A model generated the notes under the pieces. That model did no database searches. It was not told where the DNA came from and saw only the letters and a list, made by a program, of their open reading frames with translations. The position numbers were made by a program, and so were the translations under genes. Source: a virus (taxonomy: Duplodnaviria > Heunggongvirae > Uroviricota > Caudoviricetes). Taken from it: 23,452 nt of DNA. This document shows, in pieces, positions 1 through 22,350 of the stretch. The stretch is from the IMG/VR virus record IMGVR_UViG_2609460346_000013, one strand, 5' to 3'. Position 1 is the first letter of the stretch; each line of letters begins with the position of its first letter.

Positions 1-981
1 TTATAACGTCACTCCGCCTTTTAGTGGATTCAGAGCGACGGCATTTTGCAGATAGTCAGGCGCAAGGTGCGCATAGGCCATCGTCTGCTGAATGCTCGCA
101 TGTCCCAGAATCTGTTGCAGTGCGATTATATTGCCCCCATTCATCATGAAATGGCTTGCGAATGTATGCCGCAGGATGTGGGTTGCCTGATTGGGTGGTA
201 TATCAGGTTTCACTCTGCGTAAAATCCCGCAAAATTTCTCATAATCAACTTTGAATAATTTGGCGCTGGCCTCCTCTTTAACTTTTTTCTCCAGTTCCTC
301 AGAAATCGGCACGGTTCGCTTTTTACCGTTTTTGGTTTTCAGGAAGGTAACCCTGCAATTTGTAATCTGTGCTGGTTTTAGCGTGGCAACTTCCGTCCAT
401 CTTCCTCCAGTGCTCAGACATAAAAGCGCGACAAGTAAGTCATCACCAGCCAAAACATTTAACAGTTTTTCGATTTCTGCTTTTTCCAGGAACGTCATTT
501 CAGGGTTGGCTTCCGCCAGTGGCGGCAGTCCGTGAATTGGGTGTTGCCCGGAAAATTCATCCAATTGAATTAATTTTGTGAACATGCCGGATAATCGGTA
601 CATGTCACGGTTTATCGTTGCGGCACTGATACCATCACGTAGTCGCATGGAACGATAATCCATCAAAGCCCTTTTGCTCATCCTGCTCACTGGTATATCA
701 CCTATGCCGCTGATGGTTTTGAGTAGATGATTAAACTCTTTTGTTCCATGCTCGTGGTTTTGCCCGTGATATTTCCACCAGATGTCCAGCAACTCACTCA
801 AAGTCCGGCGGTCTGCTCGCTGGCCTCCCCATTCTTTCTGACTGGCATTGGCGATTGTGTATCGCTCAAATGCTAGTGCTTCAGCTTTTCTTTCGAATTT
901 CCTGCGGATGCGTTTTCCGTCGCGGCCGCGAGGTCTAATGTCCACTTCATAGCGACCATCATCGAGCTTCTTAATTGCCAT
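1..981 (-). CDS. int: Tyrosine integrase, P2 Int-like (326 aa from MAIKKLDDG; an in-frame ATG at 1011 would add 10 aa)
   Basis: Minus-strand ORF with C-terminal tyrosine-recombinase motifs (HILRHTFASHF, LGHASIQQTMAYAH). A GGAGGG Shine-Dalgarno lies 8 nt upstream of the ATG at 981. N-terminus matches the recalled P2 Int start. Stop codon sits at window positions 1-3. Confidence 0.9.
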   Translation of the reverse strand: MAIKKLDDGRYEVDIRPRGRDGKRIRRKFERKAEALAFERYTIANASQKEWGGQRADRRTLSELLDIWWKYHGQNHEHGTKEFNHLLKTISGIGDIPVSRMSKRALMDYRSMRLRDGISAATINRDMYRLSGMFTKLIQLDEFSGQHPIHGLPPLAEANPEMTFLEKAEIEKLLNVLAGDDLLVALLCLSTGGRWTEVATLKPAQITNCRVTFLKTKNGKKRTVPISEELEKKVKEEASAKLFKVDYEKFCGILRRVKPDIPPNQATHILRHTFASHFMMNGGNIIALQQILGHASIQQTMAYAHLAPDYLQNAVALNPLKGGVTL

Positions 982-1050
982 AAGAAAGCCCTCCGGCGCT
1001 GTATTCACCATCTTGGTAGCAAATGGTGAAAATGTAATCTTTATATAGAG

Positions 1051-1344
1051 TTAGCCAATCCTTTTCGCGGAGTGGTTGGACTCTGTTGACTCTGGCCCAA
1101 TGTGCGCGAGAGCCGGTGCGATTTGTCCTGCGTCCGGCGCGGTTTTATCTGTCATAAGCCATAGAGCATATTTTTGGAATGTGGGATGCATAGTGATTTT
1201 TAGCAAAGCTGTGCCACCAGGTTCAAAGTTTCCTCCTTCATATTTTTTAAGTGTGCTTAGTGGTAAGTCTATGATTTCACAGAATTTTGATTGGCTTAGC
1301 CCTTCAGCCTCACGCAAGGCCTTAATCTTTTCGCTTAATTTCAT
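1051..1344 (-). CDS. C: Immunity repressor, P2 C-like (97 aa)
   Basis: Small minus-strand ORF between int and a divergently transcribed cox, as in P2. Contains a helix-turn-helix-like segment (LSQSKFCEIIDLPLSTLKKYE) and a C-terminal segment (QIAPALAH) resembling recalled P2 C. Confidence 0.7.
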   Translation of the reverse strand: MKLSEKIKALREAEGLSQSKFCEIIDLPLSTLKKYEGGNFEPGGTALLKITMHPTFQKYALWLMTDKTAPDAGQIAPALAHIGPESTESNHSAKRIG

Positions 1345-1355
1345 TTGACATGGTG

Positions 1356-1403
1356 CCTATATAGGGACTAAATTCCCTCAAAACTGGAACCTATATAGGT
1401 TCC
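1356..1403. promoter_or_regulatory. Putative immunity-switch operator region: two copies of the palindrome CCTATATAGG (1356..1365 and 1390..1399), the second inside a perfect 18-bp palindrome GGAACCTATATAGGTTCC (1386..1403)
   Basis: Read directly from the sequence. Located in the 121-bp gap between divergent C and cox, where P2-like phages carry face-to-face Pc/Pe promoters and repressor operators. Confidence 0.5.
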
Positions 1404-1465
1404 ATTGATTTGAGAATAAACCAGCGTCTAAACGGTTTTGAGTGGTTTAGAAAGGGCTGGATCCT

Positions 1466-1753
1466 ATGAGGGTACCATATATGGACGCTGAAAATTATGT
1501 GATTCAGTATCCGCTGGACGCGGTTCATGTGGATAAATTTGCTGATTTATTAGGGAAGCCAAAGACAGCCGTCAGTGAAATGGTGAAGGCAAATAAATTA
1601 CCAATTATTGAATTACGTGATCCTTGCAAACCGAAGGCTCGTGCCGGTGAAAAATGGGTTTTCATTCCTGAGTTTAATCGCGCTGTACGTGAGGCGTTTT
1701 ATAACCGACCGGTTGAACAGCGTGATGCATGGCTTTTGTGGATGGGGTTGTGA
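1466..1753 (+). CDS. cox: Cox-like excisionase / early transcriptional regulator (95 aa; start could be the internal Met at 1481)
   Basis: First gene of the rightward early operon, divergent from C. Size and position match P2 Cox. Weak AAAGGG ribosome-binding site upstream. Confidence 0.65.
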   Translation: MRVPYMDAENYVIQYPLDAVHVDKFADLLGKPKTAVSEMVKANKLPIIELRDPCKPKARAGEKWVFIPEFNRAVREAFYNRPVEQRDAWLLWMGL

Positions 1754-1755
1754 TT

Positions 1756-1926
1756 ATGAATGAGCCGCGTTGTATTGCTCAGTTATTGCGTAACGAAAGC
1801 CCCAGGGTGATTGACTTCACCATCACCCACGGGAAGGGACGCAAGGGAATCATTATCCGCACCAAAAAACAGAGTCCGTTAAAGAAGGCTCTGACCTTTC
1901 TGAAAAGCCGGAGGGTCTGGAAATGA
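1756..1926 (+). CDS. Small early-operon hypothetical protein (56 aa from MNEPRC)
   Basis: Its stop overlaps the B start in an ATGA junction (1923..1926), suggesting translational coupling. Basic, lysine/arginine-rich. No recognised domain. Confidence 0.45.
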   Translation: MNEPRCIAQLLRNESPRVIDFTITHGKGRKGIIIRTKKQSPLKKALTFLKSRRVWK

Positions 1927-2423
1927 CAGTGATGACGCTTAATCTCGTTGAAAAACAGCCAGCAGCTATGCGCCGGATAATTGGTAAGCATCTGGCCGTC
2001 CCTCGCTGGCAGGATACATGTGATTATTATAATCAGATGATGGAACGCGAACGGCTAACAGTTTGCTTTCATGCGCAGTTAAAACAACGTCATGCAACGA
2101 TGCGTTTTGAAGAAATGAACGACGTCGAACGTGAACGGCTGGTTTGTGCAATTGATGAATTGCGTGGGGCATTCTCAAAACGCCGTCAGGTTGGCGCAAG
2201 TGAGTATGCATATATTAGTTTTTTAACAGTCAGTCAGCGTCGTACTTTATTTATGCATGCCGGATTGACTGAAAAAGAATTCAACCAGCCATACTGGCGA
2301 ATTAATGAAGAGTCATGTTACTGGCGTGATGCTTTATTCCGTGCATTACGTGAATTATTCAGCCTGTTTGAGTATGCACCGACAATTCTGACGTCGGTAA
2401 AACCAGAGCAATATCTGCATTAA
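1923..2423 (+). CDS. B: Replication protein B-like (166 aa)
   Basis: GGAGGG ribosome-binding site about 10 nt upstream. Length identical to recalled P2 gpB and position between cox and A is as in P2. Confidence 0.75.
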   Translation: MTVMTLNLVEKQPAAMRRIIGKHLAVPRWQDTCDYYNQMMERERLTVCFHAQLKQRHATMRFEEMNDVERERLVCAIDELRGAFSKRRQVGASEYAYISFLTVSQRRTLFMHAGLTEKEFNQPYWRINEESCYWRDALFRALRELFSLFEYAPTILTSVKPEQYLH

Positions 2424-2486
2424 ATAATTAACCAGAGTTTTAAACGCACTTAATCGTGCGGGGCTTCTTTTTGCCTGGAGAAAGTC

Positions 2487-2711
2487 ATGCATACAGTTTC
2501 TGAAAATCAGTGCGGTAAATACGCATTACTGCTGCAACAGGCCAGAACCGAAGCACAGGCTGACGCTGCGACGCGCTTTTCTTCTCATCTTGACGCCATG
2601 ATTCGCCATATCACAAAGGCGGAGTTATCCCGCGTGGAGATAGTCGAGCTACTCAGTCAGGAGTCGGAAAAATTTCACAATATCGGATTGTCTCGCGGGG
2701 AGGTGCTTTGA
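2487..2711 (+). CDS. Hypothetical early protein (74 aa)
   Basis: GGAGA ribosome-binding site upstream. Stop overlaps the next start (TGATG). Position corresponds to the small ORFs between B and A in P2. Confidence 0.55.
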
Positions 2712-3010
2712 TGTCCTGTTCTCATTCAGTTGTATTACTGAATAACGCCTTAAAAATCGCCGTTATGAAAAATGGCGATTTGTCTCTTATCCAACTTTGT
2801 CTTGATAAAGAAAAACGCGACATCACTGAATCTGTTATCGCGATTTATCAGAGCGAATTAAACCTCCTGTCTGATGTGATCAATTTACTTGTGAAACGCG
2901 CTGTATTCCACAAGCAAATTTCCTCAGTGGATGAACTGACAAAATTAACGACAGAACTCGCCAGTTATTGCGCTGATGTATCCAGGAAACTTAACGATAA
3001 AAGGAGCTGA
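2711..3010 (+). CDS. Hypothetical early protein (99 aa)
   Basis: ATG at 2711 overlaps the preceding stop, continuing the coupled early operon. Confidence 0.55.
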   Translation: MSCSHSVVLLNNALKIAVMKNGDLSLIQLCLDKEKRDITESVIAIYQSELNLLSDVINLLVKRAVFHKQISSVDELTKLTTELASYCADVSRKLNDKRS

Positions 3011-3012
3011 TA

Positions 3013-3237
3013 ATGCCGGACAACGTAGATTTTATTCAGGAACAACAGGCTGAATTACTGGAGCGCCAGATTAACGCGGCAAGGGTAAAACATTGCGGTG
3101 TTTCTTCGCTGGTTTGCGAAGAGTGTGACGCTCCAATACCTGCTGCCCGTCGTGCGGCTTATCCGTCAGCCACGCGTTGTGTTTCCTGTCAGTCAGTCTT
3201 TGAAGCAAAAAACAAACATTACCGGAGAACGGCATGA
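3013..3237 (+). CDS. DksA/TraR-type C4 zinc-finger protein (74 aa)
   Basis: Perfect AAGGAG ribosome-binding site. CxxC-x17-CxxC motif (CEECDAPIP...CVSCQ) typical of TraR/DksA-family phage proteins. Confidence 0.7.
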   Translation: MPDNVDFIQEQQAELLERQINAARVKHCGVSSLVCEECDAPIPAARRAAYPSATRCVSCQSVFEAKNKHYRRTA

Positions 3238-3509
3238 GTATTCGTATTGAAATTGGCGAACGTTATGTCGTTACCAGTGACAGCTTTCAGTTTATTCTCC
3301 ACGAGAAAAAGAGAGCGGAAAGCGGTAAAAACGCCGGTCAGGAATGGCTGGCGGTGGTTGGTTATTACCCGAAATTAAGCCAGCTCGTTTCCGGCCTGAT
3401 GCATCACGATATTCTGACCGGAAGCGCAAAGTCTTTTGCTGATTTAAACGGGCAGGTTGAGCAACTCAGCAAGCGTTGTTCAGAGGCTTTTGGCTCATAT
3501 GGCCGTTAA
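3234..3509 (+). CDS. Hypothetical early protein (91 aa)
   Basis: ATGA overlap with the preceding gene. Its 3' end overlaps the A start by 11 nt. Confidence 0.55.
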   Translation: MSIRIEIGERYVVTSDSFQFILHEKKRAESGKNAGQEWLAVVGYYPKLSQLVSGLMHHDILTGSAKSFADLNGQVEQLSKRCSEAFGSYGR

Positions 3510-5778
3510 AGCCTCCGGGCGTTTTGTCCCTCCGTCAGCATTTGCCGCAGGCACCGGTAAGACGTTTACCGGTGCTTATGCATGGAACGCGCCACGCGAG
3601 GCCGTCGGGCGCGAAAGACCCCTTACACGTGACGAGATGCGTCAGGTGCAAGGTGTTTTATCCACGATTAACCGCCTGCCTTACTTTTTGCGTTCGCTGT
3701 TTACTTCACGCTATGACTACATCCGGCGCAATAAAAGCCCGGTGCACGGGTTTTATTTCCTCACATCCACTTTTCAGCGTCGTTTATGGCCGCGCATTGA
3801 GCGCGTGAATCAGCGCCATGAAATGAACACCGACGCGTCGTTACTGTTTCTGGCAGAGCGTGACCACTATGCGCGCCTGCCGGGAATGAATGACAAGGAG
3901 CTGAAAAAATTTGCCGCCCGTATCTCATCGCAGCTTTTCATGATGTATGAGGAACTCTGCGATGCCTGGGTGGATGCCCATGGCGAAAAAGAATCGCTGT
4001 TTACGGATGAGGCGCAGGCTCACCTGTATGGTCATGTTGCTGGCGCTGCACGTGCTTTCAATATTTCCCCGCTCTACTGGAAAAAATACCGTAAAGGACA
4101 GATGACCACGAGGCAGGCATATTCTGCCATTGCCCGCCTGTTTAACGATGAGTGGTGGACTCATCAGCTTAAAGGCCAGCGTATGCGCTGGCATGAGGCG
4201 TTACTGATTGCTGTCGGGGAGGTCAATAAAGACCGTTCTCCTTATGCCAGTAAACATGCCATTCGTGATGTGCGTGCACGCCGCCAGGCAAATCTGGAAT
4301 TTCTTAAATCGTGTGACCTTGAAAACAGGGAAACCGGCGAGCGCATCGACCTTATCAGTAAGGTGATGGGCAGTATTTCTAATCCTGAAATTCGCCGGAT
4401 GGAGCTGATGAACACCATTGCCGGTATTGAGCGTTACGCCGCAGCAGAGGGTGATGTGGGGATGTTTATCACGCTGACCGCGCCGTCAAAGTATCACCCG
4501 ACACGTCAGGTCGGAAAAGGCGAAAGTAAAACCGTCCAGCTAAATCACGGCTGGAACGATGAGGCATTTAATCCAAAGGATGCGCAGCGTTATCTCTGCC
4601 ATATCTGGAGCCTGATGCGCACGGCATTCAAGGATAATGATTTACAGGTCTACGGTTTGCGTGTCGTCGAGCCACACCACGACGGAACGCCGCACTGGCA
4701 TATGATGCTTTTTTGTAATCCACGCCAGCGTAACCAGATTATTGAAATCATGCGTCGCTATGCGCTCAAAGAGGATGGCGACGAAAGAGGAGCCGCGCGA
4801 AACCGTTTTCAGGCAAAACACCTTAACCGGGGCGGTGCTGCGGGATATATCGCGAAATACATCTCAAAAAACATCGACGGCTATGCACTGGATGGTCAGC
4901 TCGATAATGATACCGGTAGGCCGCTGAAAGACACAGCTGCGGCTGTTACCGCATGGGCGTCAACGTGGCGCATTCCGCAATTTAAAACGGTTGGTCTGCC
5001 GACAATGGGGGCTTACCGTGAACTACGCAAATTGCCTCGCGGCGTCAGCATTGCTGATGAGTTTGACGAGCGCGTCGAGGCTGCACGCGCCGCTGCAGAC
5101 AGTGGTGATTTTGCGTTGTATATCAGCGCGCAGGGCGGGGCAAATGTCCCGCGCGATTGTCAGACTGTCAGGGTCGCCCGTAGCCCGTCGGATGACGTTA
5201 ACGAGTACGAGGAAGAAGTCGAGAGAGTGGTCGGCATTTACGCGCCGCATCTCGGCGCGCGTCATATTCATATCACCAGAACGACGGACTGGCGCATTGT
5301 TCCGAAAGTGCCGGTCGTTGAGCCTTTGACTTTAAAAAGCGGCATCGCCGCGCCTCGGAGTCCTGTCAATAACTGTGGAAAGCTCACCGGTGGTGATACT
5401 TCGTTACCGGCTCCCACACCTTCTGAGCACGCCGCAGCAGTGCTTAATCTGGTTGATGACGGTGTTATTGAATGGAATGACCAGGAGGTCGTGAGGGCGC
5501 TCAGGGGCGCATTAAAACGAGGTCTGAGAAGACCAAACCGTCAGCAAAGAAACGGAAGCCCGTTAAAACAGCATGAAATGGCACCATCGGCCAGACTGAC
5601 CCGGTCAGAACGAATGCAAATTACCCGTATCCGCGTTGACCTTGCTCAGAACGGTATCAGGCCGCAGCGATGGGAGCTTGAGGCGCTGGCGCGTGGAGCA
5701 ATTGTAAATTACGACGGGAAAAAATTCACGTATCCAGTCGCTGATGAGTGGCGGGGATTCTCAGCAGTAATGGAGTGA
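3499..5778 (+). CDS. A: Replication initiation endonuclease A (rolling-circle initiator; 759 aa from MAVKASGRF)
   Basis: Large ORF with an HUH-type metal-binding motif (PHWHMMLF). N-terminus matches recalled P2 gpA. The longer ORF from 3457 is an upstream extension. Confidence 0.9.
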   Translation: MAVKASGRFVPPSAFAAGTGKTFTGAYAWNAPREAVGRERPLTRDEMRQVQGVLSTINRLPYFLRSLFTSRYDYIRRNKSPVHGFYFLTSTFQRRLWPRIERVNQRHEMNTDASLLFLAERDHYARLPGMNDKELKKFAARISSQLFMMYEELCDAWVDAHGEKESLFTDEAQAHLYGHVAGAARAFNISPLYWKKYRKGQMTTRQAYSAIARLFNDEWWTHQLKGQRMRWHEALLIAVGEVNKDRSPYASKHAIRDVRARRQANLEFLKSCDLENRETGERIDLISKVMGSISNPEIRRMELMNTIAGIERYAAAEGDVGMFITLTAPSKYHPTRQVGKGESKTVQLNHGWNDEAFNPKDAQRYLCHIWSLMRTAFKDNDLQVYGLRVVEPHHDGTPHWHMMLFCNPRQRNQIIEIMRRYALKEDGDERGAARNRFQAKHLNRGGAAGYIAKYISKNIDGYALDGQLDNDTGRPLKDTAAAVTAWASTWRIPQFKTVGLPTMGAYRELRKLPRGVSIADEFDERVEAARAAADSGDFALYISAQGGANVPRDCQTVRVARSPSDDVNEYEEEVERVVGIYAPHLGARHIHITRTTDWRIVPKVPVVEPLTLKSGIAAPRSPVNNCGKLTGGDTSLPAPTPSEHAAAVLNLVDDGVIEWNDQEVVRALRGALKRGLRRPNRQQRNGSPLKQHEMAPSARLTRSERMQITRIRVDLAQNGIRPQRWELEALARGAIVNYDGKKFTYPVADEWRGFSAVME

Positions 5779-6107: not shown

Positions 6108-6482
6108 ATGGGGAAGCAAGGCAAAGGCAAAGGCAACAAAAATCAGGTTAAGGTTACGTGGGCTCAGGCGTGGCGGGATGTAATGATAAGAGCCATGTCT
6201 AATGGTCAGTTGATACCTATTACCATCAGTATTATTTTAATGATTGCTGCATGGAGGTTACCAAAAACAGACTTGTCCAATTTAGCCTTCTCTATTGTTG
6301 ATGGCTTTAAGGAGCATTCCTTGGTTGGTTGGGCTATCTCGGTAATAGTGGGTTTGGCTTGGTCTGCACATGCGCGAATCATGAGGCGCTGTTTTAGTTC
6401 CGAGGCACAGAGAATCGGTAACGAGAAAACAAAGTATCAACAAAGACAGACCACTCAAGCCTTGGGTACAAGTGATAAATAG
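6108..6482 (+). CDS. Small membrane protein with two predicted transmembrane helices (124 aa; start uncertain)
   Basis: Hydrophobic segments LIPITISIILMIAAW and LVGWAISVIVGLAW. Lies in the cargo island between A and cos. No recognised domain. Confidence 0.5.
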   Translation: MGKQGKGKGNKNQVKVTWAQAWRDVMIRAMSNGQLIPITISIILMIAAWRLPKTDLSNLAFSIVDGFKEHSLVGWAISVIVGLAWSAHARIMRRCFSSEAQRIGNEKTKYQQRQTTQALGTSDK

Positions 6483-6502
6483 TTGTTTATTTAGGAGTTA
6501 TT

Positions 6503-7060: not shown

Positions 7061-7062
7061 AA

Positions 7063-7088
7063 ATCACCCCTTAGGGGGTGATTTTTTT
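7063..7088 (+). terminator. Rho-independent terminator
   Basis: 7-bp GC-rich stem (TCACCCC/GGGGTGA) with a TTAG loop, followed by a run of seven T. Confidence 0.8.
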
Positions 7089-7299
7089 ACATGACTTTTG
7101 ATTAGCTGACATTGTAAATCCGCATGTATCAGATGCATTGTTTTGCATGTGGAAATGGGTGTTTTCACTGCCAGCTATCGCTACATGTAGCAAAAACACG
7201 GGCTTAATAAGAAATCATTCTGCCATAAGGCATAACTTCCCCGCGTGCTCAGGTATTGACGTCATAGATATGGATCTTTTTTAATCAAGGTATGGTATT

Positions 7300-8998: not shown

Positions 8999-9000
8999 TA

Positions 9001-11740: not shown

Positions 11741-11743
11741 GCC

Positions 11744-14917: not shown

Positions 14918-15000
14918 TACGCTCTCCTTGAATGTTGTCTGGTAGTTCTACAAATGAATCCAGATAGCATAACTTTTATATATTGTGCAATCTCACATGC

Positions 15001-15636: not shown

Positions 15637-15980
15637 CAGCGCGTTATCTCGGAATGAATCGCAGTGATGGCCTGACGGTCACTGACCTTGAGCATATCAG
15701 CCAGAGTATCGGCGATATCCTGCGCACACCGGTCGGCTCACGGGTGATGCGCCGTGATTACGGCTCGTTGCTGGCGTCAATGATTGACCAGCCGCAGACC
15801 CCGGCGCTTGAGTTGCAGATTAAGGTCGCCTGTTACATGGCGGTGCTGAAATGGGAACCCCGCGTCACCCTGTCATCCGTCACCACGGCGCGCAGTTTTG
15901 ACGGGCGAATGACGGTCACGTTAACCGGTCAGCACAACGACACCGGTCAGCCACTTTCGTTAACCATCCCTGTGAGTTGA
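15633..15980 (+). CDS. W: Baseplate wedge protein W (115 aa)
   Basis: ATGA overlap with V. Length matches recalled P2 gpW. Confidence 0.85.
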   Translation: MTARYLGMNRSDGLTVTDLEHISQSIGDILRTPVGSRVMRRDYGSLLASMIDQPQTPALELQIKVACYMAVLKWEPRVTLSSVTTARSFDGRMTVTLTGQHNDTGQPLSLTIPVS

Positions 15981-15984
15981 AACC

Positions 15985-16893
15985 ATGCCGATTATCGACC
16001 TGAACCAGCTACCCGCACCGGATGTGGTCGAGGAGCTGGACTTTGAAACCATTCTTGCCGAACGCAAGGCGACACTGATTTCCCTTTACCCGGAAGACCA
16101 GCAGGAGGTGGTCGCCCGTACCCTGACGCTGGAATCGGAGCCTCTCGTCAAACTGCTGGAAGAAAATGCTTATCGTGAGCTTATCTGGCGTCAGCGTGTG
16201 AATGAGGCCGCACGGGCGGTGATGCTGGCCTGTGCCGCCGGTAATGACCTTGATGTGATTGGTGCCAATTACAACACCACACGCCTGATTATCATCCCGG
16301 CAGATGATTCGACCATCCCGCCGACACCGGCAGTGATGGAATCTGACACCGATTATCGTCTGCGTATTCAGCAGGCGTTTGAAGGTTTAAGCGTTGCCGG
16401 GTCGGTGGGAGCCTATCAGTATCATGGTCGCAGTGCCGACGGGCGTGTCGCGGATATCTCTGTCACCAGTCCGTCTCCGGCCTGTGTCACTATCTCCGTG
16501 CTGTCCCGAGAAAATAACGGTGTCGCATCCGAAGACCTGCTGGCTGTGGTGCGTAACGCTCTTAATGGCGAGGACGTCAGGCCGGTGGCTGACCGTGTGA
16601 CCGTGCAGTCTGCCGCCATTGTTGAATACCAGATAAACGCCACGCTGTATCTTTACCCTGGTCCAGAAAGCGAACCCATCCGCGCCGCCGCCGTGAAAAA
16701 ACTGGAAGCGTACATCACGGCACAGCACCGGCTGGGGCGCGACATCCGTCTGTCTGCCATTTATGCCGCTTTGCATGTGGAAGGCGTGCAGCGTGTCGAA
16801 CTGACTGCACCGCTGGCTGACATCGTGCTCAACAGTACGCAGGCGTCTTTCTGCACCGAATACAGCGTCGTGACCGGAGGCTCGGATGAGTGA
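15985..16893 (+). CDS. J: Baseplate protein J (302 aa)
   Basis: Length matches recalled P2 gpJ. Gene order V-W-J-I is conserved. Confidence 0.85.
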   Translation: MPIIDLNQLPAPDVVEELDFETILAERKATLISLYPEDQQEVVARTLTLESEPLVKLLEENAYRELIWRQRVNEAARAVMLACAAGNDLDVIGANYNTTRLIIIPADDSTIPPTPAVMESDTDYRLRIQQAFEGLSVAGSVGAYQYHGRSADGRVADISVTSPSPACVTISVLSRENNGVASEDLLAVVRNALNGEDVRPVADRVTVQSAAIVEYQINATLYLYPGPESEPIRAAAVKKLEAYITAQHRLGRDIRLSAIYAALHVEGVQRVELTAPLADIVLNSTQASFCTEYSVVTGGSDE

Positions 16894-17416
16894 TTCGCGA
16901 CTGCTGCCGACCGGCTCATCACCGCTTGAGGTCGCCGCCGCAAAAGCCTGTGCGGAAATTGAAAAAACACCGGTCAGTATTCGTGAGCTGTGGAACCCGG
17001 ACTCCTGTCCGGCAAATCTGCTGCCGTGGCTGGCGTGGGCGTTTTCGGTCGACAGGTGGGATGAAAAGTGGCCGGAAGCGACAAAACGCGCCGTTATCCG
17101 CGATGCCTATTTCATCCACTGTCATAAAGGCACTATCGGCGCAATCCGACGCGTGGTGGAGCCGCTCGGCTATCTCATCAACGTGACGGAGTGGTGGGAA
17201 AACAGTGACCCGCCCGGCACCTTCCGGCTTGATATTGGTGTACTGGAAAGCGGTATCACAGAGGCAATGTATCAGGAAATGGAACGGCTGATTGCCGATG
17301 CCAAACCTGCAAGCCGCCACCTTATTGGCCTGAACATTACCCGGGACATTCCCGGCTATCTGTTCGCCGGTGGTGTGGCTTACGACGGCGATGTAATTAC
17401 GGTTTACCCCGGATAA
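16886..17416 (+). CDS. I: Baseplate protein I (176 aa)
   Basis: Overlaps the J stop by 8 nt. Length matches recalled P2 gpI. Confidence 0.85.
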   Translation: MSDSRLLPTGSSPLEVAAAKACAEIEKTPVSIRELWNPDSCPANLLPWLAWAFSVDRWDEKWPEATKRAVIRDAYFIHCHKGTIGAIRRVVEPLGYLINVTEWWENSDPPGTFRLDIGVLESGITEAMYQEMERLIADAKPASRHLIGLNITRDIPGYLFAGGVAYDGDVITVYPG

Positions 17417-17426
17417 GTGAGGAATA

Positions 17427-19472
17427 ATGAGCATAAAATTCAGAACCGTTATCACCACTGCCGGTGCAGCAAAGCTGGCAGCGGCAACCGCGCCGGGAGG
17501 GCGGAAGGTCAACATTACCACGATGGCCGTCGGGGATGGCGGTGGTAAATTGCCTGTCCCGGATGCCGGACAGACCGGGCTTATCCATGAAGTCTGGCGA
17601 CATGCGCTGAACAAAATCAGCCAGGACAAACGAAACAGTAATTATATTATCGCCGAGCTGGTTATTCCGCCGGAGGTGGGCGGTTTCTGGATGCGTGAGC
17701 TTGGCCTGTACGATGATGCGGGAACATTAATTGCCGTGGCGAACATGGCCGAAAGTTATAAGCCAGCTCTTGCCGAAGGCTCAGGGCGTTCGCAGACCTG
17801 TCGCATGGTCATCATCGTCAGCAGTGTGGCCTCAGTGGAGCTGACCATTGACACCACAACGGTGATGGCGACTCAGGATTACGTTGATGACAAAATTGCA
17901 GAGCATGAACAGTCACGACGTCACCAGGACGCCTCGCTGACCGCAAAAGGTTTTACTCAGTTAAGCAATGCGACCAACAGCACGTCTGAAACACTGGCCG
18001 CAACGCCGAAAGCGGTTAAGGCCGCATATGACCTTGCTAACGGGAAATATACCGCACAGGACGCTACCACAGCGCGAAAAGGTCTTGTCCAGCTAAGTAG
18101 TGCGACCAACAGCATATCTGAAACGCTCGCCGCAACACCAAAAGCCGTTAAGACGGTAATGGATGAAACGAACAAGAAAGCGCCATTAAACAGCCCTGCA
18201 CTGACCGGAACGCCAACGACGCCAACTGCGCGACAGGGAACGAATAATACTCAGATCGCAAACACGGCTTTCGTTATGGCCGCGATTGCCGCCCTTGTAG
18301 ACTCGTCGCCTGACGCACTGAATACGCTGAACGAGCTGGCGGCGGCGCTGGGCAATGACCCGAATTTTGCTACCACCATGACTAATGCGCTTGCGGGTAA
18401 GCAACCGAAAGATGCCACTTTGACGGCGCTGGCGGGGCTTGCTACTGCGGCAGACAGGTTTCCGTATTTTACGGGGAATGATGTTGCCAGCCTGGCGACC
18501 CTGACAAAAGTCGGGCGGGATATTCTGGCTAAATCGACCGTTGCCGCTGTTATCGAATATCTCGGTTTACAGGAAACGGTAAACCGAGCCGGGAACGCCG
18601 TGCAAAAAAATGGCGATACTTTGTCCGGCGGGCTTACTTTTGAAAACGACTCAATCCTTGCCTGGATTCGAAATACTGACTGGGCGAAGATTGGATTTAA
18701 AAATGATGCCGATGGTGACACTGATTCATATATGTGGTTTGAAACAGGTGACAACGGCAATGAATATTTCAAATGGAGAAGTCGCCAGAGCACCACAACA
18801 AAAGACCTGATGAATCTTAAATGGGATGCTCTGTATGTTCTTGTTAAAGCCCTTTTCAGCAGTGAAGTAAAAATATCTACAGTCAATGCACTGAGGATAT
18901 TTAATTCATCTTTTGGGGCTATTTTTCGCCGTTCTGAAGAAAACCTGTATATCATTCCTACACGAGAAAATGAGGGTGAAAATGGAGATATTGGGCCATT
19001 AAGGCCATTCGGCATCAACTTAAGAACAGGAGTTGTGTCTGTTGGTAATGGTGCCAGGATTGATGGCGGGCTGGCACTTGGCACGAATAACGCGTTGGGT
19101 GGGAACTCTATTGTTCTTGGTGATAACGACACCGGATTTAAACAAAATGGCGATGGTAATCTGGATGTTTATGCTAATAACGTCCATGTTATGCGCTTTG
19201 TTTCCGGAAGCATTCAAAGTAATAAGACCATAAATATTACGGGGCGTGTTAATCCCTCGGATTACGGTAACTTTGATTCCCGCTATGTGAGAGATATCAG
19301 ACTTGGCACACGTGTTGTCCAGACCATGCAGAAAGGGGTGATGTATGAGAAAGCAGGGCACGTAATTACCGGGCTTGGTATTGTCGGTGAAGTCGATGGT
19401 GATGACCCCGCAGTATTCAGGCCAATACAAAAATACATCAATGGCACATGGTATAACGTCGCACAGGTGTAA
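17427..19472 (+). CDS. H: Tail fibre protein H (681 aa)
   Basis: GAGGAA ribosome-binding site. Conserved P2-H-type N-terminus (MSIKFRTVITTAGAAKLAAA). Internal repeated SATNS-SETLAATPKAVK motif. The C-terminal third is visibly AT-richer. Confidence 0.85.
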   Translation: MSIKFRTVITTAGAAKLAAATAPGGRKVNITTMAVGDGGGKLPVPDAGQTGLIHEVWRHALNKISQDKRNSNYIIAELVIPPEVGGFWMRELGLYDDAGTLIAVANMAESYKPALAEGSGRSQTCRMVIIVSSVASVELTIDTTTVMATQDYVDDKIAEHEQSRRHQDASLTAKGFTQLSNATNSTSETLAATPKAVKAAYDLANGKYTAQDATTARKGLVQLSSATNSISETLAATPKAVKTVMDETNKKAPLNSPALTGTPTTPTARQGTNNTQIANTAFVMAAIAALVDSSPDALNTLNELAAALGNDPNFATTMTNALAGKQPKDATLTALAGLATAADRFPYFTGNDVASLATLTKVGRDILAKSTVAAVIEYLGLQETVNRAGNAVQKNGDTLSGGLTFENDSILAWIRNTDWAKIGFKNDADGDTDSYMWFETGDNGNEYFKWRSRQSTTTKDLMNLKWDALYVLVKALFSSEVKISTVNALRIFNSSFGAIFRRSEENLYIIPTRENEGENGDIGPLRPFGINLRTGVVSVGNGARIDGGLALGTNNALGGNSIVLGDNDTGFKQNGDGNLDVYANNVHVMRFVSGSIQSNKTINITGRVNPSDYGNFDSRYVRDIRLGTRVVQTMQKGVMYEKAGHVITGLGIVGEVDGDDPAVFRPIQKYINGTWYNVAQV

Positions 19473-19475
19473 TTT

Positions 19476-20003
19476 ATGCAGCATTTAAAAAATATTACTG
19501 CGGGTAATCCAAAAACTGTTGCCCAATATCAACTGACAAAAAATTTTGATGTTATCTGGTTATGGTCCGAAGAGGGAAAAAACTGGTATGAGGAAGTAAG
19601 TAATTTTCAGGAAGACACGATAAAGATTGTTTACGACGAGAATAATATAATTGTCGGCATCACCAGAGATGCTTCAACGCTTAACCCTGAAGGTTTCAGC
19701 GTTGTCGAGGTTCCTGATATTACCTCCAACCGACGTGCTGATGACTCAGGTAAATGGATGTTTAAGGATGGTGCCGTGATTAAGCGGATTTATACGGCAG
19801 ATGAACAGGAGCAACAGGCAGAATCACAAAAAGCAGCTTTACTTTCCGAAGCGGAAAGCGTTATTCAGCCACTGGAACGCGCTGTCAGGCTGAATATGGC
19901 GACGGATGAGGAATGCGCACGACTGGAGTCATGGGAACGCTACAGCGTTCTGATCAGCCGTGTGGATCCTGCAAATCCTGAATGGCCGGAAATGCCGCAA
20001 TAA
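19476..20003 (+). CDS. G: Tail fibre assembly chaperone G (175 aa)
   Basis: Directly downstream of H. Length matches recalled P2 gpG. Confidence 0.8.
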
Positions 20004-20224: not shown

Positions 20225-20818
20225 ATGTTTACTAAGCGACGATTAAAAAATATTAACTGGGAGGCAAGTTCAGTGATTCTTGCTATGGTTCTCTTTGTTG
20301 GAAATATATTTTATACAAATCATCGTGATGATATAAGCATGGAGGCTGAGAGGGACAGTATCAGAACAATGTTTGCATATGAAATCGCTAATAACCATCG
20401 CGCTCTCACTTTTCTTGATAAAACGAGACATATTGGCTTTGACGAAAATTCGGAGCATTTTGTTGGCGAGCCTTTTGCCATTAATGTCAAATCATTAGGG
20501 GGACCTCGCTTACAGATTGCATTAAACCAGACTGATAAAGTGTTTAAATCCTACTTCGGCGAATTAAGTAAGCTTGATAAAGAGGATGTTACTCTTCTTA
20601 TGGACTATTACCATGAGCAAAGCATCCTGCTGGAGCGTGTAAAATCTACGTTACAGAAGATGAAAAGTGGTAATGATATTAAAGTTGATATTGATGGTTG
20701 CTTATTAGAAGAACACTTCATGAATGAGCTTAATCTTTCTAATATTTTGCTTAAACGCTATAGCTATTTATTATCACAACACGCTAAGGAACATAAAACA
20801 AAAGATTTACATAATTGA
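20225..20818 (+). CDS. N-terminally membrane-anchored hypothetical protein (197 aa), cargo gene at the P2 Z/fun position
   Basis: AAGGTG ribosome-binding site. One N-terminal hydrophobic helix (SSVILAMVLFVGNIFY), then a soluble domain with no recognised motif. AT-rich. Confidence 0.6.
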   Translation: MFTKRRLKNINWEASSVILAMVLFVGNIFYTNHRDDISMEAERDSIRTMFAYEIANNHRALTFLDKTRHIGFDENSEHFVGEPFAINVKSLGGPRLQIALNQTDKVFKSYFGELSKLDKEDVTLLMDYYHEQSILLERVKSTLQKMKSGNDIKVDIDGCLLEEHFMNELNLSNILLKRYSYLLSQHAKEHKTKDLHN

Positions 20819-21044
20819 TAATCTGCTAATGGTTATTCATGGGGTAACTATGTTTTATATGTAATCCAGCCCAGATGAATTATTGATTCTGGATAATAAC
20901 CGCAGAGCGGCATATACCCTGACAGGCAAATGTCCGCTTCTTGCTCAAAGCAGACTGTCAGATTTGATAACTTTTGGGCTATGTAAACTGTCAGTCGGAA
21001 AATGAGTGTGTACAAATCAGGACAGGCGGGGGGAATTGCCCCCA

Positions 21045-21066
21045 TTTTTTTTTTTTTTTTTTTTTT
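21045..21066. repeat. Homopolymeric tract of 22 consecutive T, preceded by an imperfect GC hairpin (GGGGGGAATTGCCCCC)
   Basis: Counted directly. Lies between the cargo gene and the FI remnant. Confidence 0.9.
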
Positions 21067-21148
21067 CCACTGACCAGCCAGGTCAAATAGCGTCTCATGT
21101 ACTACCCAACGGAAAATAGTTGCACCCATTAACCACGGAGTTAAACGG

Positions 21149-21262
21149 ATGAGTGACTATCATCACGGCGTGCAGGTGCTGGAGATTAACGACGGCACCC
21201 GCGTCATTTCCACCGTATCCACAGCCATTGTCGGCATGGTCTGCACGGCTAGCCTCCCGTAA
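21149..21262 (+). pseudogene. FI: Tail sheath FI, N-terminal 37-codon remnant
   Basis: [35 protein letters not shown] matches the recalled P2 FI N-terminus, then runs into a stop after two more codons. Confidence 0.75.
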
Positions 21263-22013
21263 CAGGCTGGAAGCCAGTGTCGCTCCGTCACTGGCCGGAA
21301 TTAAAATCCCGCACATCGACCAGTCGCAGGAGTCCGATGCGAAATTCCTGACCCGTCTTGCTGAACGCAACGGCGGTGAGGTGTCGGTAAAAATGGGAAA
21401 ACTGCTGTTTCTCAAAGCGGGGCAGGGGGGGACGGTCAGCGGTAAAAAAATCCCGCAGATTACCATCACCCGCAGCGACGGCGACCGTCATCATTTTGCG
21501 ATTGCTGACCGTGGAGCCTACACAGGCGTAACGGCAAAGTGGTTACACACCAAAGACCCGAAGCCGCAAAAGCAGAAGGTAAAACTGAAACGCAAAAAGA
21601 AAGAGAAACACCTGCGCGCACTGGAGCACCCGAAAGCGAAACCGGTCACGCAGAAGAAAGAGCCAAAAGTACCGGAAGCGCGCGAAGGTGAATACATGGC
21701 CGGTGAGGCTGACAACGTTTTTGCCCTGACCACGGTATATGCCACGAAAGCACAGGCCATGCGCGCCGCTCAGGCGAAGTGGGATAAACTGCAACGGGGT
21801 GTTGCGGAGTTCTCCATCAGCCTGGCTACTGGTCGGGCAGATATTTACACGGAAACGCCGGTCAGAGTGTCAGGCTTTAAGCGCGTCATAGACGAGCAGG
21901 ACTGGACAATCACTAAGGTGACACATTTTCTGAATAATAGCGGCTTCACGACGTCCCTGGAGCTTGAGGTCAGGCTTTCTGATGTGGAGTACGAAACAGA
22001 AGATGATGAGTGA
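21263..22013 (+). pseudogene. D: Tail protein D, C-terminal fragment (about 240 codons), fused out of frame to the FI remnant
   Basis: The frame carries D-like C-terminal sequence (IPHIDQSQESDAKFLTRLAERNGGEVS ... lysine-rich linker ... RLSDVEYETEDDE). Its first about 36 codons in the ORF track are an out-of-frame read of FI. The exact junction lies within about 21255..21300. Confidence 0.7.
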
Positions 22014-22094
22014 TGTAATTTATTTATCTGTTTGTTTTATAAGGATAAATTAACTAAAATGGCACCATCAACAAAACCGGAAGAGGTGCTCGCG

Positions 22095-22313
22095 ATGTTT
22101 CATTGTCCTTTATGCCAGCATGCCGCACATGCGCGTACAAGCCGCTATATCACTGACACGACAAAAGAGCGTTATCACCAGTGTCAGAACGTGAATTGCA
22201 GCGCCACGTTCATCACTTATGAGTCGGTACAGCGATACATCGTGAAGCCGGGAGAAGTCCATGCCGTAAGGCCGCACCCGTTGCCGTCAGGACAGCAAAT
22301 TATGTGGATGTAA
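22095..22313 (+). CDS. ogr: Late-gene transcriptional activator Ogr (zinc finger, 72 aa from MFHCPLCQH)
   Basis: CxxC...CxxxxC zinc-binding pattern (CPLCQH...CQNVNC). Length and N-terminus match recalled P2 Ogr. It is the last prophage gene before host DNA. Confidence 0.9.
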   Translation: MFHCPLCQHAAHARTSRYITDTTKERYHQCQNVNCSATFITYESVQRYIVKPGEVHAVRPHPLPSGQQIMWM

Positions 22314-22323
22314 TCACAAAAAT

Positions 22324-22350
22324 AGCCCCTCAGTTGAGGGGCTTTATTTA
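22324..22350 (+). terminator. Rho-independent terminator after ogr
   Basis: 8-bp stem AGCCCCTC/GAGGGGCT with a 4-nt loop, followed by a U-rich tail (TTTATTTA). Confidence 0.75.

What the first reader, a model, noticed from the sequence alone, without database searches (positions are those of the whole stretch)
1..22350. Selective decay pattern: integration, immunity, replication, cos, portal, baseplate and tail fibres retained; capsid and tail tube/sheath lost
Both deletions remove blocks of structural genes, while int, C, cox, B, A, the cos sequence, Q, lysA/B/C, R, S, V, W, J, I, H, G and ogr look intact with in-frame lengths matching P2. This could mean the element is recently decayed. Alternatively it may be maintained for its cargo genes, or be mobilisable by a helper P2-like phage that supplies capsid and terminase in trans, since cos and replication functions remain.
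Basis: inference. Interest (0 to 1): 0.45.

Follow-up and report, generated by a model that had tools for sequence, protein, structure and literature searches.

The report
Recently broken P2-like prophage
This is an ordinary P2-family prophage of E. coli, inserted between cpxP and fieF, that two recent strain-private deletions have crippled; its surviving genes look intact because the damage is young, not because they are demonstrably being preserved.

Summary
The window is a P2-like (Peduovirus) prophage, 98% identical to the viable phage P2_AC1. It lacks two blocks. The first (5.3 kb) runs from the N-terminal part of P through pP/pO, O, N, M, L, X and Y to the first 16 codons of K. The second (5.4 kb) runs from FI codon 36 through FII, E, T and U to D codon 126. 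Every other gene is full length, with no stops or frameshifts.

The pattern is not demonstrably selective. Both junctions show 3-4 nt microhomology and occur in none of 5,426 complete E. coli genomes, nor in the other collections scanned. dN/dS of the retained genes (0.06-0.09) equals that between viable phages. The dead fragments P' and 'K are as well conserved as the whole genes. Q and lysA-S have lost their promoters. Random placement puts both deletions inside the late region about 30% of the time.

The cargo is the 2TM-1TM-TIR defence system, experimentally validated in phage AC1, which also blocks P2. Helper mobilisation is physically possible (cos, ori, A, int and cox present; 22.6 kb) but nothing supports it.

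Side findings: the D breakpoint is a recurrent deletion endpoint, and a private T22 tract replaces half of the pF activator site.

The parts
1..1011 (-). int, tyrosine integrase (AC1/Wphi type; 326-336 aa depending on the start chosen). The window begins at its stop codon.
   Evidence: tblastn: 99.7% to AC1 gp13, 52% to P2 Int. Pfam Int_N + Phage_integrase.
1051..1344 (-). C immunity repressor (97 aa), not P2 immunity type.
   Evidence: 99% to AC1 gp12, 43% to P2 C. Same allele in D7, M21816, R18C and P24B2.
1481..5778 (+). Early operon: cox, orf78, B, orf80-83 and A (3499-5778), with the ori nick site near 5357.
   Evidence: All full length. The 80 nt around the P2 ori nick differ at 1 position.
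6108..8247 (+). 2TM-1TM-TIR anti-phage system (three genes: 6108-6482, 6503-7060, 7300-8247) in the A-Q hotspot.
   Evidence: PADLOC 2TM-TIR, 1TM-TIR and TIR-TM, full length, E 1e-58 to 1e-118. Pfam TIR_2. The same system from phage AC1 was shown to protect against lambda, LF82_P8 and P2 (PMC9122126).
8714..9918 (+). Two further hotspot ORFs (94 aa and 305 aa), function unknown.
   Evidence: Only PHROG families of unknown function. 99.6-100% identical to D7, 0-4 and Ec-U3 prophages.
10023..10041 (+). cos 19-nt cohesive-end sequence GGCGAGGCGGGGAAAGCAC.
   Evidence: Exact match to P2 cosL/cosR. The flanks match AC1 and M21816, including a 13-bp gap relative to P2, D7 and Wphi that AC1 and M21816 share.
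10199..11233 (-). Q portal gene, intact ORF (344 aa), but its promoter pP is deleted.
   Evidence: 99.4% to AC1 gp42. pP/pO lie inside deletion 1. No promoter-like site nearby.
11236..11739 (-). P' fragment: C-terminal 168 codons of the terminase large subunit.
   Evidence: tblastn P residues 423-590, 100% amino-acid identity.
11737..11740 (.). Junction 1 (P'|'K), microhomology GCTG. About 5.32 kb missing.
   Evidence: Absent from 5,426 complete E. coli genomes, GTDB representatives and metagenomes (the single hit is a chance 22-mer).
11738..12187 (+). 'K fragment: endolysin lacking its first 16 codons and its start.
   Evidence: tblastn K residues 17-165.
12202..14060 (+). lysA, lysB, lysC (12895-13185), R and S: intact ORFs cut off from the pO promoter.
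   Evidence: Full-length matches. pO deleted. No promoter-like site between 9934 and 14225.
14132..14917 (-). orf30 (261 aa), non-essential P2 cargo ORF.
   Evidence: 98.9% to P2 Orf30.
14932..20003 (+). pV activator site (14932-14959) and the V operon: V, W, J, I, H, G (baseplate wedge/spike, tail fibre and its assembly protein). This is the only late operon with promoter and genes complete.
   Evidence: The pV region is identical to P2 10239-10310. All six genes are full length.
20225..20818 (+). Z/fun-locus cargo ORF (197 aa), labelled 'lysogenic conversion protein' in RefSeq for M21816.
21033..21066 (+). Private sequence cluster: a GC hairpin plus a T22 run replaces the conserved tract that carries the TGT half of the pF activator site.
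   Evidence: Not found in IMG/VR.
21149..21253 (+). FI' fragment: the first 35 codons of the tail sheath gene, then 2 codons and a stop after the junction.
21250..21253 (.). Junction 2 (FI'|'D), imperfect microhomology (C/T)AGC. About 5.44 kb missing.
   Evidence: Absent from complete E. coli genomes, GTDB representatives and metagenomes.
21254..22013 (+). 'D fragment: about 253 C-terminal codons of D, with no start and out of frame with FI'.
   Evidence: It differs from intact AC1/M21816 at 2 of 760 positions.
22095..22313 (+). ogr late-gene activator with its own promoter and terminator.
   Evidence: 100% to P2 and AC1 Ogr. Promoter region conserved. Terminator at 22324-22343.
22425..22471 (+). 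attR core (47 bp, includes the cpxP terminator hairpin).
   Evidence: Identical 47-mer at attL and attR of the D7 prophage, one copy in the window.
22550..23452 (+). Host gene fieF (CDF cation efflux), the right chromosomal flank.
   Evidence: Pfam Cation_efflux + ZT_dimer. Annotated as fieF in D7, M21816 and 26561.

Best explanation
The window holds a defective P2-like prophage at the cpxP|fieF attachment site. It derives from a phage very like the viable isolate P2_AC1. Two independent illegitimate (microhomology-mediated, RecA-independent type) deletions, each internal to the late-gene region, created it.

Deletion 1 removed terminase, capsid, head completion, the tail protein X, the holin, the start of the endolysin and the divergent pP/pO promoters. 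Deletion 2 removed sheath, tube, tape measure, U and the N-terminal third of D. The element can therefore make neither heads nor tails nor lyse the cell.

The remaining genes are intact because the deletions are evolutionarily very recent, not because they were spared by selection. Q and lysA-lysB-lysC-R-S are now promoterless passengers. Only the lysogeny/early module, ogr, the V operon and the cargo genes remain expressible.

The one part with an obvious present-day benefit to the host is the 2TM-1TM-TIR anti-phage system, with superinfection immunity from C. Shown: the structure, the junctions, their privacy, and the lack of relaxed selection. Inferred: the deletion mechanism, the loss of expression, and the benefit of the cargo.
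For: Collinear 96-99.8% identity to AC1 and M21816 with exactly two gaps. An intact counterpart with the same cargo sits at the same cpxP|fieF site in strains M21816 and D7.

Junction microhomologies are GCTG and (C/T)AGC. By my calculation, roughly 1e-3 is expected for both by chance if the ends were arbitrary.

Neither junction occurs in 5,426 complete E. coli genomes, although about 1,530 to 1,740 of them match those junction-flank queries. Neither junction was found where it was scanned: each was tried in the GTDB representatives and in 241 M metagenome records; only the second junction's D side was scanned in IMG/VR, which found a different junction (L016), not this one.

All retained ORFs are full length. 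Pairwise dN/dS window vs AC1, M21816, D7 and P2 is 0.04-0.12 for early genes, 0.06-0.08 for the promoterless late genes and fragments, and 0.09 for the V operon. Intact-vs-intact controls give 0.06-0.13.

Private substitutions are 34 synonymous to 13 nonsynonymous (ratio 0.38). Viable phages P2, Wphi, HQ103, R18C and P24B2 give 0.29-0.60. With a panel of up to 118 sequences the count is 54 to 22, with no stops or indels in about 19.8 kb.

Internal control: the fragment P' has zero amino-acid changes relative to P2 and AC1, and 'K has one. Conservation here therefore cannot indicate function.

pP/pO are deleted and no promoter-like site lies between 9934 and 14225. pV is identical to P2.

Multi-deletion P2-like remnants with other endpoints are common (ZH177, 26561, L016, L079, L090, L123). 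Another such junction, in 26561, is also private to one genome.
Against: Under random placement, sparing all three cargo loci as well as the early region, cos and ogr has p about 0.02. Some filtering by selection, for example against loss of the defence genes or of the repressor, therefore cannot be dismissed.

Three of the other remnants examined (ZH177, 26561, L016) also keep sequence at the A-Q cargo position; for L016 this is inferred only from an unaligned 5.6 kb stretch.

The closest sequenced relatives are still 1-3% diverged over most genes, so the test for relaxed selection on the terminal branch has limited power. By my estimate it bounds the neutral period to under about 15% of a 0.4% branch.

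The cluster of private changes at 21033-21066 shows the element is not simply 'AC1 minus two blocks'. attL and the rest of the genome are unseen.
Confidence: 0.8

Rival explanations
1. Domestication. The host keeps the element for its cargo (the 2TM-1TM-TIR defence system, immunity, perhaps orf30 and the Z-locus ORF). The two deletions were favoured because they disarm the prophage (no lysis, no virions) while sparing every useful module.
For: The cargo system is full length and 97.6-100% identical in protein to the AC1 system, whose three cloned genes (2TM, 1TM, TIR) were shown experimentally to protect against lambda, LF82_P8 and P2. Both deletions miss all three cargo loci, the early region, cos and ogr, with p about 0.02 under random placement and the strict definition. 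Deletion 1 removes the holin and truncates the endolysin. ZH177, 26561 and L016 also retain sequence at the A-Q cargo position; for L016 this is inferred only from an unaligned stretch.
Against: The architecture is private to one sequence, so there is no sign of persistence or sweep. The p of 0.02 rests on a definition made after seeing the data, and the lenient definition gives 0.28-0.33. P2-type prophages are, from established knowledge, not SOS-inducible and cost little, so selection for disarming is weak. Retained but promoterless or truncated genes are as conserved as the cargo, which points to recency. At least one remnant (L123) did lose the A-cargo-cos block.
Confidence: 0.25
2. Proto-satellite. 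The element is mobilised by a P2-like helper that supplies terminase, capsid and tail in trans. It excises with its own Int and Cox, replicates with its own A, B and ori, and is packaged from its cos site as a 22.6-kb genome.
For: The cos 19-mer and flanks are identical to those of the viable phage AC1. The ori region, A, B, int, cox and attR are intact. The element is 22,587 bp, close to two P4 genomes, and P2-size heads are reported to package two or three P4 copies viably (PMC4936722; bioRxiv 10.64898/2026.03.30.715334).
Against: Every ORF is either a P2 orthologue or hotspot cargo also present in intact relatives; those relatives carry no P4-type satellite genes in their annotations, but no direct search for sid, psu, delta or epsilon homologues was run. 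The element keeps its own C repressor, which is shared by many P2-like phages, so homoimmune helpers are repressed. A heteroimmune helper has no known way to derepress it (established P2 biology, inference). Its own TIR system restricts P2. Neither junction occurs in any of the 5,426 complete E. coli genomes or in the other collections scanned, so there is no sign of horizontal spread. The retained late genes (portal, baseplate wedge, fibres) do not form a coherent unit that a satellite would need.
Confidence: 0.06
3. Artefact. The deletions are assembly errors or laboratory constructions rather than natural events.
For: No other sequence in any collection searched carries either junction. The odd T22 tract at 21045-21066 could be a base-calling artefact.
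Against: Assembly collapse needs repeats, and the joined sequences share only 3-4 nt. Both junctions show microhomology typical of natural illegitimate recombination. The D breakpoint is the same nucleotide used by two independent natural remnants. Neither junction makes an in-frame or otherwise designed fusion.
Confidence: 0.04

Closest known systems
Escherichia phage P2_AC1 (NC_070903 / OV192280), a viable P2-like phage isolated on E. coli C (Rousset et al. 2022, PMC9122126), and the intact prophage of E. coli M21816 at cpxP|fieF
   Same: Same gene order, immunity type, integrase, cos variant, tail-fibre H allele (99.1%), 2TM-1TM-TIR cargo, orf30 and Z-locus ORF. 98.1% identity over 96% of the window. 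The 'D-ogr-attR segment differs at 2 of 1222 positions.
   Different: The window lacks 10.76 kb in two blocks. It has a private T22 / altered hairpin tract upstream of pF. It is 2-5% diverged in many late genes (mosaic ancestry).
Other decayed P2-like prophages in E. coli: strain 26561 (NZ_CP027118, same cpxP|fieF site), strain ZH177 (NZ_CM125652, yegR|trhP site), IMG/VR UViG_2778261676_000006
   Same: Internal deletions in the late region leave int, hotspot cargo, cos, Q, a D fragment and ogr. P is truncated in 26561 and ZH177, and Q itself is truncated in the UViG. Several deletions per element are usual. 26561 and the UViG use exactly the same D breakpoint as the window.
   Different: Different left partners (P+897, Q+88) and different extents. 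26561 lost everything from P to D, and ZH177 also lost cox-A and P-V. Different cargo. The 'D sequences differ at 19-24 of 760 positions, so the events are independent.
E. coli K-12 cryptic prophage PR-X (ogrK + yegZ)
   Same: An end-stage P2 remnant that keeps ogr and a C-terminal fragment of D next to attR.
   Different: Only 629 bp remain, at the trhP|yegR site, with a different D breakpoint (219-nt fragment). The window is at a far earlier stage of decay.
Satellite phage P4 (and P4-like elements)
   Same: Lacks capsid, terminase and tail genes. Carries a P2-type cos, its own integrase and replication functions, and a defence hotspot next to cos (PMC9122126).
   Different: P4 has dedicated helper-exploitation genes (sid, psu, delta, epsilon; established knowledge), its own primase-type replicon and an 11.6-kb genome sized for small capsids, and it is widespread. 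The window has none of these, and its architecture is unique to one sequence.

Membership tests
P2-like (Peduovirus) prophage | Collinear nucleotide and protein homology to P2-family genomes across early, late and regulatory modules | tested here: met
   192 phage records match. AC1: 98.1% over 96% of the window. P2: 95.9% over 65%.
P2-like (Peduovirus) prophage | P2-type cos site (19-nt cohesive end) between the A-side hotspot and Q | tested here: met
   Exact 19-mer at 10023-10041. Flanks as in AC1.
P2-like (Peduovirus) prophage | Tyrosine integrase with duplicated att core at both ends | tested here: inconclusive
   int is intact and the attR core (47 bp) is present at 22425-22471. attL lies about 116 nt beyond the left end of the window and cannot be seen.
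Functional (plaque-forming) P2-like phage | Complete set of essential head, packaging, tail and lysis genes (Q P O N M L X Y K R S V W J I H G FI FII E T U D) | tested here: not met
   O, N, M, L, X, Y, FII, E, T and U are absent. P, K, FI and D are truncated.
Phage satellite (P4-like / PICI-like) | Lacks capsid and terminase genes but carries a packaging site recognised by the helper | tested here: met
   Terminase and capsid genes deleted, cos intact. This feature alone is also true of any defective prophage with this deletion.
Phage satellite (P4-like / PICI-like) | Dedicated helper-exploitation functions (derepression or transactivation of the helper, capsid-size redirection, interference) | tested here: inconclusive
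   All ORFs are P2 orthologues or hotspot cargo also carried by intact relatives. Pfam, PADLOC and PHROGs were run only on the cargo ORFs, int and the host flank, and gave nothing satellite-like there. No direct search for sid, psu, delta or epsilon homologues was run.
Phage satellite (P4-like / PICI-like) | The same architecture recurs in many genomes and loci (evidence of transfer) | tested here: not met
   Neither junction occurs in any of 5,426 complete E. coli genomes. The scans of GTDB representatives and metagenomes, each of which tested one junction at a time, also found none.
Phage satellite (P4-like / PICI-like) | Helper-dependent packaging and transduction | not testable with these tools
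   Needs a superinfection or transduction experiment.
2TM-1TM-TIR anti-phage system (Rousset et al. 2022) | Three adjacent genes matching the 2TM, 1TM and TIR models full length, located in the gpA-gpQ hotspot | tested here: met
   PADLOC PDLC02978, PDLC02977 and PDLC03016, full length, E 2e-58 to 2e-118. Pfam TIR_2. Position 6108-8247 between A and cos.
2TM-1TM-TIR anti-phage system (Rousset et al. 2022) | Confers phage resistance | not testable with these tools
   Shown for the AC1 copy, which is 97.6-100% identical in protein, in PMC9122126. Not tested for this copy.
R-type tailocin / contractile-tail bacteriocin | Sheath, tube, tape measure and complete baseplate retained with lysis genes, head genes lost | tested here: not met
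   Sheath, tube, tape measure, U, X, the N-terminal part of D, the holin and the endolysin start are all missing.
Domesticated, vertically maintained defective prophage | Orthologous remnant with the same lesions shared by related strains, with purifying selection after inactivation | tested here: not met
   The lesions are private. The dN/dS signal is indistinguishable from that of viable phages and is equally present in dead fragments, so it predates inactivation.

The most novel reading that the evidence does not exclude
The element is an incipient P2-derived satellite. It would be a defence-carrying, 22.6-kb cos+ori+int replicon that heteroimmune P2-like helpers can package into full-size heads. 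It would keep its own tail-fibre/baseplate-wedge operon (V-G, Ogr-activatable) and so impose its own host range on the particles. Nothing in the sequence forbids this, but nothing specifically supports it. The lack of spread and the element's own anti-P2 TIR system argue against it.
Probability: 0.05. Interest if true: 0.55.

Novelty: new member of a known kind. Interest (0 to 1): 0.15.

Why it matters
As it stands the element is a textbook snapshot of the first steps of prophage decay: a P2-like phage disabled by two fresh deletions and still carrying a working-looking defence system. Its main value is methodological. Intact reading frames in a deleted prophage are not evidence of selective retention. 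Here, truncated and promoterless genes are just as 'conserved' as the complete ones.

Two by-products may be worth more than the finding itself. First, one nucleotide position in gene D serves as the right-hand endpoint of three independent deletions. This suggests that mutational hotspots, not selection, shape which tail genes P2-like remnants lose. Second, the defence cargo of a dead prophage stays in place, consistent with the view that defective prophages persist as defence islands.

Tried and rejected
- Exact-junction scans. The first genome contigs and metagenome-contig scans gave 0 hits. The second genome scan gave 0 hits. The second metagenome scan gave one hit (L003) with no other similarity to the window, so it is a chance 22-mer.
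- Shared ancestry of deletion 2 with strain 26561, considered because the D breakpoint is identical. Rejected: 26561 keeps more of P than the window does. Its 'D differs at 23 of 760 positions, while the window's 'D differs from intact AC1 at only 2.
- The cos region initially looked damaged, with a 13-bp gap relative to P2, D7 and Wphi. Rejected as a lesion: the viable phage AC1 and the intact M21816 prophage share the gap.
- Tailocin reading. Rejected because sheath, tube and tape measure are gone.
- Enrichment of left endpoints in P (window, ZH177, 26561). Not sustained once 124 loci were surveyed, since endpoints also fall in Q, O, N, V, J, I, FI and T.
- Mirror-image and K-site hotspot scans in IMG/VR gave 0 hits.
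- Rfam found no RNA family in the window.
- PHROGs and Pfam gave no function for the 94-aa, 305-aa and 197-aa ORFs or for orf30.
- Bobay et al. 2014 could not be read, so statements about general prophage domestication rest on my own knowledge.

Full report
**What the window is**

Megablast against phage records shows the window is a P2-family (Peduovirus) genome. The best match is Escherichia phage P2_AC1 (NC_070903), at 98.1% identity over 96% of the window. That match spans all 33,349 bp of the phage, and P2 itself matches at 95.9% over 65%. All 5,426 complete E. coli genomes match some part of the window, because it ends in a core gene. The best E. coli prophages cover it only across 34-kb spans, so they are intact counterparts.

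Annotated relatives show the prophage sits between cpxP and fieF, as in strains D7, M21816 and 26561. The right flank 22550-23452 is fieF. The 47-bp att core, which includes the cpxP terminator hairpin, lies at 22425-22471. The window starts exactly at the int stop codon. attL, about 116 nt further left in D7, is therefore not visible.

**Checking the observation**

Pairwise BLAST to AC1 and P2 gives four collinear blocks and two gaps.

- Deletion 1 (about 5.32 kb) joins codon 423 of P to codon 17 of K. It removes the N-terminal 422 codons of the large terminase, the divergent pP/pO promoter region with its activator site, and O, N, M, L, X and Y.
- Deletion 2 (about 5.44 kb) joins codon 35 of FI to about codon 127 of D. 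It removes the rest of FI, and FII, E/E', T and U.
- The FI' reading frame stops two codons after the junction. 'D has no start and is out of frame.

tblastn with every P2 and AC1 protein finds all other genes full length, ungapped and stop-free. The list is int, C, cox, orf78, B, orf80-83, A, five hotspot ORFs, Q, lysA, lysB, lysC, R, S, orf30, V, W, J, I, H, G, a Z-locus ORF and ogr.

Refinements:

- int, C and cox are AC1/Wphi-type (43-52% identical to P2 proteins), and H is the 681-aa AC1 allele.
- The lysis cassette is broken (no Y, truncated K).
- Both terminase subunits and the tape measure are gone.

The element is now 22,587 bp against 33,344 bp for the intact equivalent.

**Are the deletions real and natural?**

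The joined sequences share only GCTG (junction 1) and an imperfect (C/T)AGC (junction 2). That excludes repeat collapse in assembly and is typical of illegitimate recombination. By my calculation, 3-4 nt of microhomology at both of two arbitrary joins would occur roughly once in a thousand.

Neither junction exists in any of 5,426 complete E. coli genomes, although roughly 1,530 to 1,740 of them match those junction-flank queries. Scans of one genome per species (GTDB) and of 241 million metagenome records, each testing one junction at a time, also found neither. The single 22-mer hit, L003, has no other similarity to the window. The lesions are therefore private to this sequence.

**Is the pattern selective?**

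Three lines of evidence say it need not be.

First, intact does not mean usable. pP and pO lie inside deletion 1. No sigma-70-like site lies between 9934 and 14225. Q, on the minus strand, and 'K-lysA-lysB-lysC-R-S, on the plus strand, are therefore promoterless. Only the V operon keeps its late promoter, which is identical to P2 pV. ogr keeps its own promoter and terminator. The retained late proteins are portal, tail-completion R and S, baseplate V, W, J and I, and fibre H and G. They cannot assemble anything without capsid, tube, sheath, tape measure, X, U and D (established P2 morphogenesis).

Second, selection signatures do not distinguish this element from viable phages.

- Nei-Gojobori dN/dS of the window against AC1, M21816, D7 and P2 is 0.04-0.12 for early genes. 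It is 0.06-0.08 for the promoterless late genes plus the P' and 'K fragments, and about 0.09 for the V operon.
- Intact-versus-intact controls give 0.06-0.13.
- Substitutions private to the window are 34 synonymous to 13 nonsynonymous (ratio 0.38). That is inside the 0.29-0.60 range of the viable phages P2, Wphi, HQ103, R18C and P24B2.
- With a larger panel of up to 118 sequences per gene, the count is 54 to 22. There is no stop or indel in about 19.8 kb. Neutral evolution would give about three nonsynonymous changes per synonymous one.
- The dead fragment P' has no amino-acid change relative to P2 and AC1, and 'K has one. The conservation therefore predates the deletions.
- The 'D-ogr-attR segment differs from intact AC1/M21816 at 2 of 1222 positions.

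The simplest reading is that the deletions are very young.

Third, chance placement is adequate. Two non-overlapping deletions of the observed sizes, dropped at random into the intact prophage, both fall between cos/Q and ogr in 28% of trials. The figure is 33% if the immunity region must survive. They also miss the small orf30 and Z-locus islands in 2% of trials. The 2% figure rests on a definition framed after seeing the data and on a single element.

**Context from other remnants**

A survey of 124 P2-like loci found about 20 internal deletions with many different endpoints. The loci comprised the relatives, two E. coli remnants found in passing, and 120 IMG/VR contigs. Several elements carry two or three deletions.

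- Strain ZH177 lost cox-A, P-V and FI-D. It kept int, cargo, Q, W-G, a PIN+SIR2 cargo and ogr.
- Strain 26561, at the same cpxP|fieF site, lost everything from P to D. It kept int-A, a helicase cargo, Q and ogr. Its junction is also unique to that genome.
- K-12's PR-X is the end stage: ogrK plus 219 nt of D.

The window is thus a typical early-stage member of a known class.

**The cargo**

ORFs 6108-6482, 6503-7060 and 7300-8247 match the PADLOC models 2TM-TIR, 1TM-TIR and TIR-TM over their full lengths, and the third has a Pfam TIR_2 domain. Rousset et al. 2022 isolated phage AC1 on E. coli C. They showed that lysogens resist lambda and LF82_P8, and that the three cloned genes reproduce this. 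They also showed that the system protects against P2 itself (PMC9122126).

This matters in three ways. It gives the element a plausible present benefit. It shows AC1 is viable, so the AC1-type cos variant shared by the window is functional. And it counts against P2 proper as a helper.

**Helper mobilisation**

Physically possible:

- The cos 19-mer and flanks equal AC1's.
- The ori region differs from P2 at 1 of 80 positions.
- A, B, int and cox are intact.
- P2-size heads are reported to package two or three P4 genomes (23-35 kb) viably (PMC4936722; bioRxiv 10.64898/2026.03.30.715334). A 22.6-kb genome is therefore within range.

Against:

- Every ORF is a P2 orthologue or a cargo gene also carried by intact relatives, so nothing satellite-specific is apparent. 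No direct search for P4-type helper-exploitation genes was run.
- The element keeps its own C repressor, an allele shared by many P2-like phages. Homoimmune helpers would be repressed, and heteroimmune ones have no known means to derepress it (established P2 biology, inference).
- Its own TIR system restricts P2.
- The architecture has not spread to any other sequenced genome.

I put this reading at about 5-6%.

**Side findings**

(1) Recurrent deletion endpoint in D.

- The right end of deletion 2 lies at GGCGA|TAGCCTCCCG (window 21250). It is the same nucleotide, within 1-3 nt set by microhomology, as the right end of the P-to-D deletion in strain 26561. It is also that of a Q-to-D deletion in IMG/VR UViG_2778261676_000006.
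- The three 'D fragments differ from one another at 19-24 of 760 positions, so the events are independent.
- Among 1,591 E. coli records matching a 300-nt probe centred on the site, the only one whose best match is truncated is 26561. It is truncated exactly at the centre.
- 120 of 121 IMG/VR loci are intact at the site.
- The break lies in the loop of a predicted hairpin GAGGC-GATA-GCCTC (60-mer z = -3.1). The K breakpoint also lies in a hairpin loop (z = -2.1), but the P and FI breakpoints do not.
- This suggests a structure-anchored, one-ended deletion hotspot. The mechanism is my inference.

(2) Private change upstream of pF.

- In every relative the sequence upstream of pF reads GGCGGGCGAATTGCCCGC(C/T)TTTTCTTTATCTGTTGTTTCAT|CCACTGACCAGCC.
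- In the window it reads GGCGGGGGGAATTGCCCCCA followed by 22 T. Every non-T base of the tract has become T.
- That removes the TGT half of the TGT-N12-CCA activator site (compare P2 pF) and creates a terminator-like hairpin plus T-run.
- It is absent from IMG/VR.
- It is either a third private lesion or a sequencing artefact. I cannot tell which.

**Verdict**

The interpretation 'recently decayed' is supported. 'Maintained for cargo' is plausible but unproven. 'Helper-mobilisable' is unsupported though not excluded. The element is a new, private member of a well-known kind, a defective P2-like prophage, and interest is low. The D-site hotspot is the most reusable by-product.

Noticed in passing
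window 21250-21253 (gene D, about nt 400); L014 13999-14010; L016 9920-9930: The D breakpoint of deletion 2 is a recurrent deletion endpoint. Three independent P2-like remnants end at the same nucleotide (GGCGA|TAGCCTCCCG): the window with left partner FI+104, E. coli 26561 with P+897, and an IMG/VR UViG with Q+88. The site lies in the loop of a predicted hairpin GAGGC-GATA-GCCTC. In 1,591 E. coli records the only truncation within 150 nt either side of the site is at this position.
   Followed up: partly
window 21033-21066: Private cluster of about 10 changes in 35 nt. A conserved T-rich tract (TTTTCTTTATCTGTTGTTTCAT) carrying the TGT half of the pF activator site is a pure T22 run here, and the preceding hairpin is altered to GGGGGG/CCCCC. 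It is unique among about 90 relatives and absent from IMG/VR. It may be a real third lesion or a base-calling artefact.
   Followed up: partly
window 10042-10090 (right of cos): A 13-bp gap (TTATTTTTTCAGC missing) about 25 nt from the cohesive end, relative to P2, D7, Wphi, HQ103 and R18C. The viable phage AC1 and the intact M21816 prophage share it, so it is a lineage polymorphism of the cos flank and not a defect.
   Followed up: yes
window 8714-9918, 14132-14917, 20225-20818: Four cargo ORFs of unknown function: 94 aa and 305 aa in the A-Q hotspot downstream of the TIR system, orf30, and a 197-aa Z-locus ORF. They match only PHROG families of unknown function. The 94-aa and 305-aa pair is 99.6-100% identical across several otherwise diverged prophages, so it may be a second hotspot system.
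   Followed up: partly
window 5779-10022 versus the rest: The hotspot cargo is 99.6-100% identical to that of prophages whose flanking late genes are only 95-98% identical to the window. This is consistent with recent horizontal exchange of the cargo cassette among P2-like phages.
   Followed up: no
L013 14410-14416 and L121 (FI about nt 365): A second possibly recurrent endpoint. Deletions in ZH177 (FI+365 to D+134) and IMG/VR locus L121 (FI+365 to FI+894) start at the same FI position, and L024 starts at FI+383.
   Followed up: no
window 11737-11760 (K breakpoint): The K-side breakpoint of deletion 1 also lies in the loop of a predicted DNA hairpin (GACATG-CTGGC-CGTGTC; 60-mer z = -2.1). The left-hand breakpoints in P and FI show no such structure. 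No other junction at this site was found in IMG/VR.
   Followed up: partly
window 22425-22471: The att core of this integrase type is the 3' end and terminator of cpxP. Integration therefore duplicates the cpxP terminator hairpin in front of fieF. Rfam reports no family here at gathering threshold.
   Followed up: partly
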